From a virus (Duplodnaviria; Heunggongvirae; Uroviricota; Caudoviricetes), in IMG/VR virus record IMGVR_UViG_2778261686_000011: a stretch of 18,877 nt of DNA; one strand, 5' to 3'. The position numbers are program-made. Shown piece after piece: positions 9,001 through 12,000 of this stretch. Position 1 is the first letter of the stretch, and every line of letters begins with the position of its first letter.

Positions 9001-12000
9001 GCGCTCTTGCGGTTTTTTTGTGTCATGAGCAGCATTACGCCCAAATTATGGTGGGGCGTGCAGGGCCAACTTCGGTTGGGCCGGGTTCTTTGGTGACCGG
9101 TATTTCCACCCCTGTACGTCTCACCACCAATAAGGTCGTGGAAAGCCTTGGTGGTGAGTTATTAAAAATCACCAAAGAGGCTGCCATCATGGCTACGATC
9201 CCAACCCTCACTCAACCTGAAATTGCCATCGTTGATGGTCAGGCTGTTACTTCATCCCTGGCTGTTGCCAACTTCTTCTCCAAACGTCATGACGATGTAC
9301 TGAAAAAGATCCGCACGCTTGAATGCTCAGCATCATTCACTGCCCGCAATTTTTCGGTGAGTGATTACACTGATTGCACAGGTCGCAAACTACCTTGCTA
9401 TCAAATAACCCGCGACGGCTTTGCGTTTCTTGCTATGGGTTTCACGGGTAAACGTGCTGCCCAGTTCAAAGAGGCATATATCAATGCCTTTAACCAGATG
9501 GAGAAACAGCTTTCAAAACCCCCTGTACCGAGCGACGTTGCACATAACGCCAGCGTTCTCTATTCCTACATTTCATCAATTCATCAGGTCTGGCTGCAGC
9601 AGCTTTATCCTATGTTGGCAAAAGCCGAATCTCCGCTGGCTGTTAGCTTGTATGACTATATTAATGATGCTTCGGCGCTGGCCTGCCTCATAAATTTGTC
9701 GCTGAACCCTTCAGAGGTAAGGGGGCGCAAATGATCCGGAATATTTTCAAACGGTTTACCAATCAGACTTTCCGTTGTCCTCGTCCGGGTCAGTGGTACA
9801 CCACACCTGCAGGGCATGTTCTACGTGTTAGCCTGGTTGACCGTGAATGTCAGAAGGTGATTTGTGAACCGCTGGGCCGTAATTACCGCGTCAGTATGCC
9901 GCTTATAGCCTTTCGCTCCGGAAAAAACATGAAGCATCTCGGAGGTGCAGCATGAGTATGGAGCTGATGGTTAAAGCGATGAAAATTCGAGTGGGTAATC
10001 CATTGCGAAAACTGGTTCTGATCAAGCTGGCTGATAATGCCAGCGATCAGGGTGAGTGCTGGCCCAGCTACCAGCATATTGCTGACCAGTGCGAGATTAG
10101 CAAACGTTCTGTGATGAATCATATTGCGGCCCTTTGTGAGTCCGGGCTGGTAAAAAAAGTCACCCGGAAAGGTGAAAAAGGTAACTCAAGTAATATCTAT
10201 CTCCTTCATCTGGATGGTGCAGGAGATTCACTAGGGGGTAGTGCAAATAATTCACTATCTGGTGCAGCAAATTCACCAGGTAGTGCAGGAGTTGCACCAG
10301 GGGGTAGTGCAGGAGATTCACCCAGAACCAGTCACTCTTTTGAACCAGTCAAAGAACCAGTCAATGAACCAATAGCTGTTGGTGCATCTGCTGATGAGTC
10401 TGTGCGAGTTCGTTCAAACCGACCGGAATACTCTCCGGAGTTTGAGCAGGCATGGCTGGCATATCCCAAACGTGCTGGTGGCAATTCAAAATCTGCAGCC
10501 TTCAAAGCCTGGAAAGCCCGTTTGAATGAGGGGATAAACCCCGAAACCATGCTGGAAGGTGTGAAACGCTATGCGGGCTGGGTATCTGCGATGGGTAACA
10601 GCGGAACACAATTTGTGAAACAGGCTGTCACGTTCTTTGGTCCGGATCGTCATTTCGAAGAATCCTGGGAAGTTCCTGCGGTATCTGCAGCCAGACGTGA
10701 GGACCCGTACTTCAAAGCCAGTTACGACAACGTGGACTACAGCCAGATCCCGGCAGGATTCAGGGGGTGATCATGAGTCTTTTGAATGAAGTTCAGAAAT
10801 TCATTGAAGCCCATCCGGGGTGTACTTCCGGAGACATTGCGGATGCTTTTGCAGGTTACTCACGGCAGCGCGTTCTGCAGTCAGCAAGCAAGTTACGTCA
10901 GAGTGGGCGTGTGGCTCACCGTTGTGAAGGAGATACACGCAGACATTTCCCACGCCTGAATGAGAGAGCGCAGGAGCCGGAACCACAACCAGTTCGTGAA
11001 ACCAGACCTGTGCGCAATTTCTATGTCGGCACTAACGACCCGCGGGTGATTTTGTGCCTGACCCGCCAGGCGGAAGAACTGGAGTCCAGGGGCTTATACC
11101 GTCGTGCTGCAACGGTGTGGATGGCGGCATTCCGTGAAAGCCACTCCCAGCCAGAACGAAATAATTTTCTGGCGCGTCGTGAACGGTGTTTACGGAAAAG
11201 CAATAAGCGGGCTGCATCAGGTGAAGAGTGGTATCTGTCAGGGAATTACGTGGGGGCTTAATGAGTAATAAATATTGCCAGGCGTTGGTGGAACTGCGGA
11301 ACAAACCAGCCCATGAACTGAAGGAAGTGGGCGATCAGTGGCGCACGCCGGATAACATTTTCTGGGGAATTAACACCCTGTTTGGTCCGTTTGTTCTGGA
11401 TCTGTTCACTGACGGTGATAACGCCAAATGTGCCGCGTATTACACGGCGGAAGACAACGCGCTGGCACATGACTGGTCAGAACGTCTTGCGGAGCTTAAA
11501 GGTGCTGCCTTTGGTAATCCCCCATACAGCCGCGCCAGTCAGCATGAGGGGCAATACATCACCGGCATGCGTTACATCATGAAGCATGCCAGTGCCATGC
11601 GTGATAAAGGCGGTCGCTATGTTTTCCTGATCAAAGCTGCCACCAGCGAAGTGTGGTGGCCGGAAGATGCAGATCATATTGCTTTTATTCGCGGGCGTAT
11701 TGGTTTTGAACTGCCTGCCTGGTTTATCCCGAAGGATGAGAAGCAGGTGCCGACAGGCGCTTTCTTCGCTGGTGCTATTGCTGTTTTCGACAAGACCTGG
11801 AAGGGACCGGCAATCAGCTACATCGGGCGCGATGAACTTGAGGCATGTGGTGAGGCCTTTCTGGCGCAGGTTCGCCAGCAGGCGGAAAAACTGGTCAGGG
11901 AGATGGCTGCATGACGACGTTAACTCAATGCCAGCAGCAGGTGCTGGATATGCTGATTTCTTACCAGAAAGAACGTGGCTTCCCGCCAACCAATCAGGAG

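What the first reader, a model, noticed from the sequence alone, without database searches (positions are those of the whole stretch)
10216..10375. Iteron-like direct repeats embedded in the replication initiator gene: candidate ori
Five imperfect copies related to GGTAGTGCAGGAGATTCAC followed by three GAACCAGTCA copies lie in the part of the gene encoding a Gly/Ser-rich linker between the HTH domain and the C-terminal domain. This mirrors lambda, where ori iterons sit inside gene O. The repeats therefore constrain both DNA binding and protein sequence.
Basis: partly seen in the sequence, partly recalled or inferred. Interest (0 to 1): 0.5.

Follow-up and report, generated by a model that had tools for sequence, protein, structure and literature searches.

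The report
Replication origin inside phage initiator gene
The repeats are real and are almost certainly the replication origin of this lambda-like phage, written inside the gene of the protein that binds it: a known design, here in an unstudied initiator family that also carries an unexplained, near-invariant DNA element.

Summary
Observation confirmed. The window holds five 15-bp cores GTGCA-N5-T(T/G)CAC (10217, 10241, 10262, 10283, 10307; spacing 24/21/21/24). Three exact GAACCAGTCA copies follow (10325, 10342, 10354). All lie in the disordered linker of a 272-aa winged-helix (PF13730) initiator, 9952-10770.

Comparison with about 400 related loci shows selection on the DNA, not the peptide:
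- The sites form a dyad-symmetric 19-bp unit, 21-24 bp apart.
- They occur in two reading frames and both orientations, encoding 165 different peptides.
- Site type matches the recognition-helix type in 195 distinct N-terminal domains, with no exception.
- In natural chimeras the iterons travel with the N-terminal domain.

The GAAYCAGTCA element is nearly universal in the family. It starts 2 bp after the last iteron and is read in two frames. Its third codon positions are 96% identical, against 40-45% in the winged-helix domain.

Best reading: a lambda-type origin inside the gene, with variable iterons plus a conserved, mildly AT-rich segment where the DNA probably opens. The initiator is "solo": the window has no helicase, loader or primase gene. 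This is a new member of a known kind (lambda O/ori, pSK41 Rep, pPR9). No replication or binding experiment exists for this family in the searched literature.

The parts
9952..10770 (+). Replication initiator gene (272 aa), Eru6 / SfV orf39 / mEp460 gp43 type
   Evidence: ORF list. PF13730 HTH_36 at 44.1 bits against a cut-off of 25. PHROG 270 'replication initiation protein', E = 2.7e-88. 98-99% identical to the annotated replication proteins of phages cdtI, SfV, mEp460 and Stx2a_WGPS2.
9952..10215 (+). Coding region of the N-terminal winged-helix DNA-binding domain (aa 1-88)
   Evidence: AlphaFold2 pLDDT 80-94, with helices 3-11, 17-28, 40-47 and 51-64 and a beta-hairpin wing at 67-73/79-85. 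Foldseek finds only generic winged-helix matches.
10102..10143 (+). Coding region of the predicted recognition helix (aa 51-64, KRSVMNHIAALCES)
   Evidence: Helix 51-64 in the model. Residues 52, 53, 55 and 56 carry the most mutual information with iteron type (0.89-1.16 of 1.52 bits), whereas residues 1-48 carry almost none.
10215..10233 (.). Iteron 1 (core GTGCAGGAGATTCAC, 10217-10231)
10239..10257. Iteron 2 (core GTGCAAATAATTCAC, 10241-10255)
10260..10278 (.). Iteron 3 (core GTGCAGCAAATTCAC, 10262-10276)
10281..10299 (.). Iteron 4 (core GTGCAGGAGTTGCAC, 10283-10297; perfect 5-bp inverted arms)
10305..10323 (.). Iteron 5 (core GTGCAGGAGATTCAC, 10307-10321); the core ends 2 bp before the conserved element
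   Evidence: The 2-nt gap to the element is found in 145 of 148 distinct linkers.
10324..10375 (.). Family-invariant element AGAACCAGTCACTCT-TTT-GAACCAGTCA-AA-GAACCAGTCA (10324-10363), plus a degenerate fourth copy GAACCAATAG (10366-10375). Proposed site of DNA opening and helicase entry; function not shown.
   Evidence: - Present in 371 of 379 family loci. Of the 7 exceptions examined, 5 are cut off by a contig end, 1 is a truncated gene and 1 carries a diverged version.
- Third-codon-position identity is 0.965, against 0.40-0.45 in the N-terminal domain.
- Copy 1 is read as R-T-S-H and copies 2 and 3 as E-P-V.
- All 111 evaluable occurrences in viral contigs lie in this gene family.
- It is the AT-richest part of the gene family, 57-64% against a 48% mean. 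The overlapping window stretch 10330-10389 is 42% GC.
10222..10422 (+). Coding region of the predicted disordered linker (aa 91-157), which carries the iterons and the conserved element
   Evidence: pLDDT below 50 for residues 91-157. Near-identical proteins range from 242 to 302 aa because the number of repeat units differs.
10429..10767 (+). Coding region of the C-terminal helical domain (aa 160-272), presumed to recruit host replication machinery
   Evidence: - Helices 162-214 at pLDDT 59-78.
- PHROG matches 'DnaD-like helicase loader' and 'primosomal protein' over aa 147-249.
- It is exchanged as a module: DNA similarity breaks at about 10358-10379, and chimeras P0065, P0069 and P0072 show the same junction.
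- No Pfam family matches it.

Best explanation
The segment 10215-10375 is the phage's origin of replication, embedded in the linker-coding part of its own initiator gene.

Proposed mechanism (inferred unless marked otherwise):
1. Dimers of the N-terminal winged-helix domain (aa 1-88) bind the five dyad-symmetric 19-bp iterons. The iterons sit about two helical turns apart, so the dimers line up on one face of the DNA and form an 'O-some'-like complex.
2. This complex strains the DNA. The adjoining conserved, relatively AT-rich GAAYCAGTCA-repeat element, which starts 2 bp after the last iteron, opens.
3. The C-terminal domain brings in host replication proteins. This phage encodes no helicase, loader or primase of its own.

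Shown by computation:
- the sites are real, dyad-symmetric, phased and unique in the genome;
- selection acts on the DNA;
- site type tracks the recognition helix.

Inferred only: binding, DNA opening, helicase recruitment and origin activity.
For: 1. The array is real and unique. Exact matches occur only at the five sites in the window and in the whole mEp460 genome. The only other tandem repeat in mEp460 lies in a tail-fibre gene.

2. The sites are dyad-symmetric. When only GTG-N9-CAC is specified, the free positions are still constrained in mirror fashion: -1 is T in 95%, 5 is A in 96%, 11 is T in 96%, position 4 is C or A, and position 12 is T or G. This holds for 733 sites in 153 distinct linkers.

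3. Spacing follows the DNA helix, not the codons. Start-to-start distances are 21 (198 cases), 22 (55), 23 (50) and 24 (210). The modal copy number is 5.

4. Selection acts on the DNA.
- The iterons occur in two reading frames (70 and 623 cases).
- They occur in both orientations, for example GTGCAggagaTTCAC and GTGAAtctccTGCAC within one gene.
- 694 iterons encode 165 different peptides.

5. Specificity changes together. Among 195 distinct N-terminal domains, recognition-helix type and iteron type pair up with no off-diagonal case:
- KRSVM-x with GTGMA..TKCAC, 103 of 104;
- ..MRHI with GTGAY..RTCAC, 8 of 8;
- RSTVK-x with GGGCR..YGCCC, 25 of 34;
- C-KSAVR-x with TGCCN..NNGCA, 34 of 41.
Every remaining domain had fewer than two matches to any of the four patterns. 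The information sits at helix residues 52, 53, 55 and 56 and in the wing.

6. In natural chimeras the iterons stay with the N-terminal domain while the C-terminal domain is swapped.

7. The layout equals that of lambda. Lambda has four iterons inside gene O at gene offsets 348-432, spaced 20/24/23 bp, followed by an AT-rich tract (PMC7466680).

8. There is experimental precedent for this kind of design. In pSK41 the Rep boxes lie centrally within rep, and the linker they encode is dispensable. In pPR9 the region carrying the RepA_N domain and the origin is replaced by one whose N-terminal domain contains a PF13730 HTH, and the pPR9 rep region supports autonomous replication (PMC5703833, read).

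9. The conserved element sits at a fixed 2-bp distance from the last iteron and is the AT-richest part of the gene.
Against: - No binding, footprint or replication assay for this family was found in the searchable literature. PMC8951638 states that nothing is known about the replication proteins of Eru phages.
- The putative opening segment is only about 58% AT in the window, far less than the AT-rich tract of lambda.
- The window has no DnaA box and no promoter-like site near the repeats.
- Near-identical prophage genes exist with only one or two iterons (P0042; P0030, seen on 64 contigs). Either few iterons suffice or these prophages are defective.
- The covariation test is not corrected for shared ancestry, and the four site patterns were defined after looking at the data.
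- How a helicase is recruited without a phage-encoded partner is unknown.
Confidence: 0.78

Rival explanations
1. The sites do bind the initiator, but they serve copy control, autoregulation or pairing of sister copies rather than initiation. The true origin lies elsewhere in the phage genome.
For: There is no strongly AT-rich segment and no DnaA box next to the array. No experiment has been done. Iterons in plasmids also serve in control (general knowledge of iteron plasmids).
Against: No other iteron cluster or comparable repeat array exists in the window or in the whole mEp460 genome. The layout is the one proven to be the origin in lambda and pSK41 (PMC7466680, PMC5703833). The fixed 2-bp junction to a conserved, relatively AT-rich element is what an opening site would need and is not needed for autoregulation. 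The sites lie about 265 bp inside the gene, not at its promoter.
Confidence: 0.1
2. The repeats are only a by-product of a low-complexity Gly/Ser/Ala/Pro linker that grows and shrinks by replication slippage. They have no DNA-level function.
For: - The unit number varies among near-identical genes, giving proteins of 242-302 aa.
- cdtI carries a 66-bp three-unit duplication.
- Every spacing in the window is a multiple of three.
- The linker is predicted to be disordered.
Against: - The conservation pattern is dyad-symmetric, not codon-periodic.
- About 19% of the adjacent-iteron spacings (21-24 bp) are 22 or 23 bp.
- The same DNA site occurs in two frames and both orientations and encodes 165 peptides.
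- Site type tracks recognition-helix residues perfectly.
- Control segments of equal length from the C-terminal coding part never contain two or more sites (0 of 188).
Confidence: 0.03
3. The sites are bound by a different phage protein, such as the Rha/Ash protein or the small protein encoded just upstream, and not by the initiator itself.
For: A Rha/Ash DNA-binding protein (8583-9734) and a 74-aa protein of unknown function (9731-9955) are encoded immediately upstream.
Against: The upstream genes differ among family members that keep the same architecture. Site type co-varies with the initiator's own recognition helix. In chimeras the sites are inherited together with the initiator's N-terminal domain.
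Confidence: 0.04
4. About the GAAYCAGTCA element only: it is kept because it is a shared junction sequence at which N-terminal and C-terminal modules recombine, not because it acts in initiation.
For: DNA similarity to other phages breaks right after it, at query positions about 407-428, which is window 10358-10379. Natural chimeras join there. C-terminal domains and partner genes downstream are highly diverse.
Against: Selection for future recombination is weak, yet third codon positions are 96% identical across Enterobacterales, Pseudomonas, Vibrio, Shewanella, Aeromonas and Stenotrophomonas. The element keeps a fixed 2-bp distance to the last iteron, has a direct-repeat structure and is the local AT maximum. 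These features point to a role coupled to the iterons. Recombination at this spot may simply be a consequence of the conservation.
Confidence: 0.2

Closest known systems
Bacteriophage lambda O protein and ori-lambda (also P22, 933W and P27)
   Same: - The origin lies in the middle of the initiator gene.
- It has 4-6 imperfect inverted-repeat iterons of about 19 bp, spaced 20-24 bp (PMC7466680), followed by a more AT-rich segment.
- The N-terminal domain gives specificity, and the C-terminal domain is an exchangeable module that connects to the helicase-loading step.
- The gene sits in the rightward early operon after cro and cII.
   Different: - There is no detectable sequence relationship: the window protein is PF13730, not PF04492, and hhalign gives 7% probability.
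- The segment right of the iterons is a sequence-conserved direct-repeat element of only about 58% AT, not an A/T tract.
- No P-type loader gene follows the initiator in this phage.
pSK41 Rep (RepA_N family) and the chimeric pPR9 Rep of staphylococcal plasmids
   Same: - Four Rep boxes lie centrally within rep.
- The central part of the protein, encoded by the origin DNA, is a dispensable linker.
- A winged-helix N-terminal domain binds the origin, and a host-specific C-terminal domain recruits a host factor (DnaG).
- In pPR9 the region carrying the RepA_N domain and the origin is replaced by one whose N-terminal domain is phage-like and contains a PF13730 HTH. The pPR9 rep region supports autonomous replication and is compatible with pSK41 (PMC5703833).
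- Foldseek lists the RepA N-terminal structures 4pql and 4pt7 among weak winged-helix matches.
   Different: - These are Gram-positive plasmids, not a Gram-negative phage.
- The window protein has no PF06970 match.
- Their iterons are built around an A-tract (PMC7145576).
- No counterpart of the conserved GAAYCAGTCA element is described for them.
- The relationship of pPR9 to the RKLVLIKLAD subfamily was not tested here.
Eru6 replication region of Shiga-toxin phages (Fagerlund et al. 2022, PMC8951638)
   Same: This window is that region. The gene is 98.9% identical to the one in the Eru6 reference phage Stx2a_WGPS2, and the gene order is the same: cI, cro, a Rha/Ash protein, then the HTH_36 protein.
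   Different: That paper classifies the gene content only. It describes no origin, iterons or mechanism, and it states that the replication proteins of Eru phages are unstudied.
pHW126-like plasmids (pIGRK, pIGMS31)
   Same: Their origin combines four roughly 20-bp iterons, which differ between plasmids, with a roughly 20-bp 'conserved region' shared by the whole family. The initiator is a winged-helix Rep.
   Different: Their origin lies outside the rep gene, their replication mode is unusual and partly rolling-circle-like, and no sequence relationship to the window protein was tested.

Membership tests
Lambda O / Phage_rep_O (PF04492) initiators with an ori-lambda-type origin | The N-terminal origin-binding domain belongs to PF04492 | tested here: not met
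   Pfam scan of the window protein finds PF13730 and weak DnaD_N, and no PF04492. Lambda O scores 5.7e-36 on PF04492. hhalign of the N-terminal alignment against lambda O gives 7% probability.
Lambda O / Phage_rep_O (PF04492) initiators with an ori-lambda-type origin | An array of four or more inverted-repeat iterons of about 19 bp inside the gene, between the N- and C-terminal domains, spaced about two helical turns | tested here: met
   Five sites at 10215-10323, spaced 24/21/21/24. The family-wide spacing is 21-24 bp. Lambda for comparison.
Lambda O / Phage_rep_O (PF04492) initiators with an ori-lambda-type origin | An AT-rich unwinding region directly right of the iterons | tested here: inconclusive
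   The element at +0 to +44 is the AT-richest part of the gene family, but only 57-64% AT, and 58% in the window. No unwinding data exist.
Lambda O / Phage_rep_O (PF04492) initiators with an ori-lambda-type origin | A P-type helicase loader encoded directly downstream that works with the C-terminal domain | tested here: not met
   The next genes are PerC-like and Dam-like. The whole window has no helicase, loader or primase gene. Some relatives do have a lambda-P-like, DnaC/IstB-like, DnaB or Toprim gene there.
Lambda O / Phage_rep_O (PF04492) initiators with an ori-lambda-type origin | The initiator binds the iterons and the fragment supports initiator-dependent replication | not testable with these tools
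   The only support is indirect: perfect correspondence between recognition-helix type and iteron type.
PF13730 (HTH_36) phage initiators, PHROG 270 / 8540 'replication initiation O-like' | A PF13730 match above Pfam's gathering score, and a PHROG family match | tested here: met
   PF13730 at 44.1 bits against a cut-off of 25. phrog_270 at E = 2.7e-88 and phrog_8540 at E = 4.4e-62.
PF13730 subfamily defined here (RKLVLIKLAD N-terminal domain with an in-gene origin) | A conserved N-terminal domain, then 2-11 dyad iterons in the linker, then the AGAAYCAGTCACTCT-N3-GAAYCAGTCA element 2 bp after the last iteron | tested here: met
   The window has all three features. The element is present in 371 of 379 loci. 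The gap is 2 nt in 145 of 148 distinct linkers.
RepA_N (PF06970) plasmid initiators, pSK41 type | The N-terminal domain belongs to PF06970 | tested here: not met
   No PF06970 match. Foldseek gives only weak matches to the RepA N-terminal structures 4pql and 4pt7, E about 0.02-0.06.
RepA_N (PF06970) plasmid initiators, pSK41 type | The origin (Rep boxes) lies centrally within the rep gene and encodes a dispensable linker | tested here: inconclusive
   The position and the predicted disorder of the linker match, as does natural variation in linker length. Dispensability of the linker peptide was not tested.

The most novel reading that the evidence does not exclude
The near-invariant element AGAAYCAGTCACTCT-N3-GAAYCAGTCA may be a sequence-specific 'melt box' private to this initiator family. 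On this reading the invariant part of the winged-helix domain (residues 1-48 hardly vary) recognises it, possibly as single-stranded DNA, and the helicase enters there. The origin would then carry a two-part code: variable iterons that set specificity, and a universal opening element that lets any N-terminal module work with any C-terminal helicase-recruiting module (DnaC-like, lambda-P-like, DnaB, primase or none). The element would also be an unusually clear case of a DNA signal read in two reading frames inside one gene.
Probability: 0.3. Interest if true: 0.6.

Novelty: new member of a known kind. Interest (0 to 1): 0.45.

Why it matters
- This initiator family is common. One 90%-identity cluster alone holds 2,852 sequences, and the search found 5,426 relatives. 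It includes the Eru6 replication type of Shiga-toxin phages, for which the literature says nothing is known about replication (PMC8951638). Placing the origin at 10215-10375 makes that replication system directly testable. Replication of Stx phages matters because it raises toxin gene copy number.
- The one-to-one pairing of four recognition-helix types with four iteron types is a ready-made natural data set for how a winged-helix domain reads DNA. It could also be used to design mutually compatible origin/initiator pairs.
- The invariant GAAYCAGTCA element is an unexplained, sharply defined DNA signal that a short series of mutants could resolve.

Tried and rejected
- DnaA boxes (TTWTNCACA): none in the window.
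- Promoter-like sites around the repeats: none. One weak terminator-like hairpin lies on the minus strand at 10175-10160, which is about what chance gives.
- Rfam, 9700-11000: only a chance miRNA match far below threshold. No known RNA element.
- PDB by sequence: nothing relevant.
- PDB by fold: only generic winged-helix matches at E about 0.01 or weaker. The C-terminal domain could not be assigned because the model is of low confidence there, and Pfam finds nothing for it.
- Small plasmids that use this gene as their only Rep, which would have been a natural minimal replicon: not found. The 29 plasmid records with a match are phage-sized or mislabelled chromosomes.
- Homology to lambda O: not detectable.
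- Literature: searches for the motif, for HTH_36 with iterons, for the SfV orf39 origin and for 'initiator-solo' modules gave no description of this origin. The SfV genome paper and Weaver et al. 2009 are not held.
- The inverted copy of the element's AGAACCAGT at 10011-10020 lies in the KLVL codons. Third positions of those codons are not conserved in the family (0.35-0.66), so I treat it as chance.
- The idea that the GAACCAGTCA copies are extra iterons of the same specificity is rejected, because they do not change when the iterons and the helix change.
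Full report
**What is there.** The window is the early region of a lambda-like temperate phage of E. coli. It holds cI (6992-7684, minus strand), cro, a cII-like gene, a Rha/Ash protein (8583-9734), a 74-aa ORF, and then a 272-aa protein at 9952-10770. After that come PerC-like, Dam-like, LexA-like, RusA, KilA-N, DUF968/HNH and Q genes, a second methylase and the lysis genes. The 272-aa protein has a PF13730 helix-turn-helix domain (44.1 bits, cut-off 25). It matches PHROG 270 'replication initiation protein' at E = 2.7e-88. Its gene is 98-99% identical to the annotated replication genes of phages cdtI, SfV (orf39), mEp460, Ayreon and Stx2a_WGPS2. Stx2a_WGPS2 is the reference for the 'Eru6' replication type of Shiga-toxin phages. 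The paper that defines that type says nothing is known about how Eru phages replicate (PMC8951638).

**The observation.** Five 15-bp cores of the form GTGCA-N5-T(T/G)CAC start at 10217, 10241, 10262, 10283 and 10307. Three exact GAACCAGTCA copies start at 10325, 10342 and 10354, and a degenerate fourth starts at 10366.
- The core pattern has exact matches nowhere else in the window. With up to one mismatch there are 15 matches against 3.5 expected, and 0 of 200 shuffles reach that.
- In the complete 44.5-kb genome of phage mEp460 the five sites are the only matches (0.34 expected). The only other tandem repeat there lies in a tail-fibre gene.
- An AlphaFold2 model places the repeats in a low-confidence, presumably disordered linker (aa 91-157). 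The linker lies between a confident winged-helix domain (aa 1-88, recognition helix 51-64, beta-hairpin wing) and a helical C-terminal domain.

**Homologues.** A distant DNA search showed a mosaic. The first half of the gene (to about query position 407-425) is shared with one set of phages, from Pseudomonas, Vibrio, Klebsiella, Salmonella and Stenotrophomonas. The second half is shared with a different set. I collected about 400 related loci from phage records, viral contigs and bacterial genomes. Nearly all have the same plan:
- a highly conserved N-terminal domain;
- a repeat-bearing linker;
- an almost invariant DNA element, AGAAYCAGTCACTCT-N3-GAAYCAGTCA;
- then unrelated C-terminal domains.

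**The iterons are DNA signals, not peptide repeats.**
1. I detected sites using only GTG-N9-CAC. The unspecified positions are still constrained in mirror-image fashion: -1 is T in 95%, 5 is A in 96%, 11 is T in 96%, position 4 is C or A, and position 12 is T or G. This gives a 19-bp imperfect inverted repeat, as in lambda (PMC7466680).
2. Start-to-start spacing in 148 distinct linkers is 21 (198 cases), 22 (55), 23 (50) or 24 (210). That is about two helical turns whether or not the reading frame is kept. Accordingly the sites fall in two frames (70 and 623 cases).
3. The asymmetric site occurs in both orientations, even within one gene, for example GTGCAggagaTTCAC and GTGAAtctccTGCAC. In all, 694 sites encode 165 different peptides.
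4. Control segments of the same length from the C-terminal coding part never contain two or more sites (0 of 188).

**Iteron type follows the recognition helix.** Among 195 distinct N-terminal domains:
- helices of type KRSVM-x go with GTGMA-N5-TKCAC (103 of 104);
- ..MRHI goes with GTGAY-N5-RTCAC (8 of 8);
- RSTVK-x goes with GGGCR-N5-YGCCC (25 of 34);
- C-KSAVR-x goes with TGCCN-N5-NNGCA (34 of 41).

Every remaining domain had fewer than two matches to any of the four patterns, so there is no off-diagonal case. Mutual information with site type peaks at residues 52, 53, 55 and 56, the start of the predicted recognition helix, and in the wing (71, 73). Residues 1-48 carry almost none. Arg56 alone marks the GTGAC class. 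The changes in the site are symmetric in both arms, for example GTGCA/TGCAC against GGGCA/TGCCC, as expected for a dimer. Natural chimeras (P0065, P0069, P0072) join a foreign N-terminal domain, with its own iterons, to a C-terminal domain almost identical to the window's. The junction lies right after the conserved element.

Two caveats apply. The test is not corrected for shared ancestry, and the four patterns were written after inspecting the data.

**Copy number varies.**
- Near-identical proteins range from 242 to 302 aa because they carry from 1 to about 9 repeat units.
- cdtI has eight, through a 66-bp three-unit duplication.
- Five is the mode.
- Several contigs end inside the array, as assemblies often do at repeats.

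**The conserved element.**
- It is present in 371 of 379 family loci. Of the 7 exceptions examined, 5 are cut off by a contig end, 1 is a truncated gene and 1 (L150) has a diverged version in which both copies changed in the same way.
- Across 63 canonical, non-redundant genes, third codon positions in the element are 96.5% identical in pairwise comparison. The figure is 40% in the N-terminal domain, and 45% even at codons whose amino acid is conserved.
- Arg is always AGA, and the two Ser codons are always AGT and TCT. The commonest change, C to T in GAACC, alters the amino acid (T/I, P/S).
- In the window, copy 1 is read as R-T-S-H and copies 2 and 3 as E-P-V, because the 17-bp spacing is not a multiple of three.
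- In some Shewanella and Aliivibrio relatives the spacing is 13 or 15 bp and the peptide changes, while the DNA is kept.
- The element starts 2 bp after the last iteron in 145 of 148 linkers.
- It is the AT-richest stretch of the gene family (57-64% against a 48% mean), directly after the GC-richest stretch.
- All 111 evaluable occurrences in viral contigs lie in this gene family. It is therefore not a general host-factor site borrowed by other initiators.
- It does not change when the iterons and the recognition helix change.

**How it most likely works.** By its anatomy this is a lambda-type origin.
1. Dimers of the N-terminal domain occupy the phased iterons.
2. The adjoining conserved, moderately AT-rich element opens.
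3. The C-terminal domain recruits the replication machinery.

Lambda itself has four 18-19-bp inverted-repeat iterons at gene offsets 348-432, spaced 20/24/23 bp, followed by an AT-rich tract. In lambda, two iterons plus the AT-rich tract suffice for unwinding, and O also binds the single-stranded AT-rich DNA (PMC7466680).

In this phage the initiator is 'solo'. Neither the 18.9-kb window nor the annotation of the whole mEp460 genome shows a helicase, loader or primase. In relatives the gene downstream is DnaC/IstB-like, lambda-P-like, DnaB, a Toprim primase or PerC-like. So one N-terminal-plus-origin module is combined with many ways of recruiting a helicase. Binding, opening, recruitment and origin activity are all inferences.

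**Comparison with known systems.** The design is well known from lambda and its relatives and from pSK41 Rep. In pSK41 four Rep boxes lie centrally within rep, the linker they encode is dispensable, and the C-terminal domain binds DnaG. In plasmid pPR9 the region carrying the RepA_N domain and the origin is replaced by one whose N-terminal domain is phage-like and contains a PF13730 HTH. The pPR9 rep region supports autonomous replication (PMC5703833).

The window protein is not a member of the lambda O family: it has no PF04492 match, and hhalign gives 7%. It is not a member of RepA_N either. It works like them and belongs to PF13730. I found no description of this origin, or of the conserved element, in the searchable literature.

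**Verdict.**
- It is a new member of a known kind.
- The part that stays unexplained, and is the most interesting, is the invariant GAAYCAGTCA element.

Noticed in passing
window 9952-10770 compared with proteins P0042, P0030, P0008, P0001 and P0018 (alignment A2): Near-identical initiator genes in E. coli and Shigella genomes carry from 1 to about 9 iteron units. One variant (P0018) has an extra EPVK unit, which is a fourth GAACCAGTCA copy. The two-iteron form P0030 is seen on 64 contigs. These may be replication-defective cryptic prophages, or they may show that two iterons are enough, as in lambda in vitro.
   Followed up: partly
proteins P0027, P0040, P0047-P0050 and P0076: Some database proteins fuse the initiator's N-terminal part to PerC, Dam or RusA domains. 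This implies deletions or frameshifts that remove the C-terminal domain in some prophages.
   Followed up: no
window 10767-11261 and 11228-11914: A PerC-like regulator gene directly follows the initiator and overlaps it by 4 bp. Its end overlaps the start of a Dam-like N6-adenine methylase gene by 34 bp. A second DNA methylase (PF01555) lies at 16498-17496. The iteron/element segment 10215-10375 contains no GATC.
   Followed up: no
window 7335-7364: A tandem 9-mer, TCAATGACA x 3.3, lies inside the cI repressor gene on the opposite strand. Not examined.
   Followed up: no
window 1-528: The first ORF encodes a SocA/Panacea-domain antitoxin-like protein, followed by a 156-aa ORF with no family. 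This may be a toxin-antitoxin or anti-defence pair at the left end of the window.
   Followed up: no
loci L145, L157, L160 (Aliivibrio); L155, L156, L165, L141 (Shewanella and Parashewanella); L150: Variant forms of the conserved element. Some have three AGAACCAGTCA copies spaced 13 and 15 bp, read as RTSH-RTSQ-LEPV. Some have 15-bp spacing, with copy 1 read as EPVT. In L150 both copies changed together to GAATCTATCA. That concerted change hints that one factor reads both copies.
   Followed up: partly
plasmid records H107-H116 (Arsenophonus nasoniae, 28-104 kb): Ten separate Arsenophonus nasoniae 'plasmids', most of them about 40 kb, each encode a member of this initiator family at 59% identity. 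They look like a swarm of phage-plasmids or circular prophages in one symbiont.
   Followed up: no
loci L168, L169, L175, L185, L193 (viral contigs): These contigs end inside the iteron array. The repeats evidently break short-read assemblies, which could bias the typing of Stx-phage replication regions from draft genomes.
   Followed up: no
window 10011-10020: ACTGGTTCTG is the reverse complement of the element's CAGAACCAGT and lies in the codons for K-L-V-L of the N-terminal domain. Third positions of those codons are not conserved in the family, so it is probably chance.
   Followed up: partly
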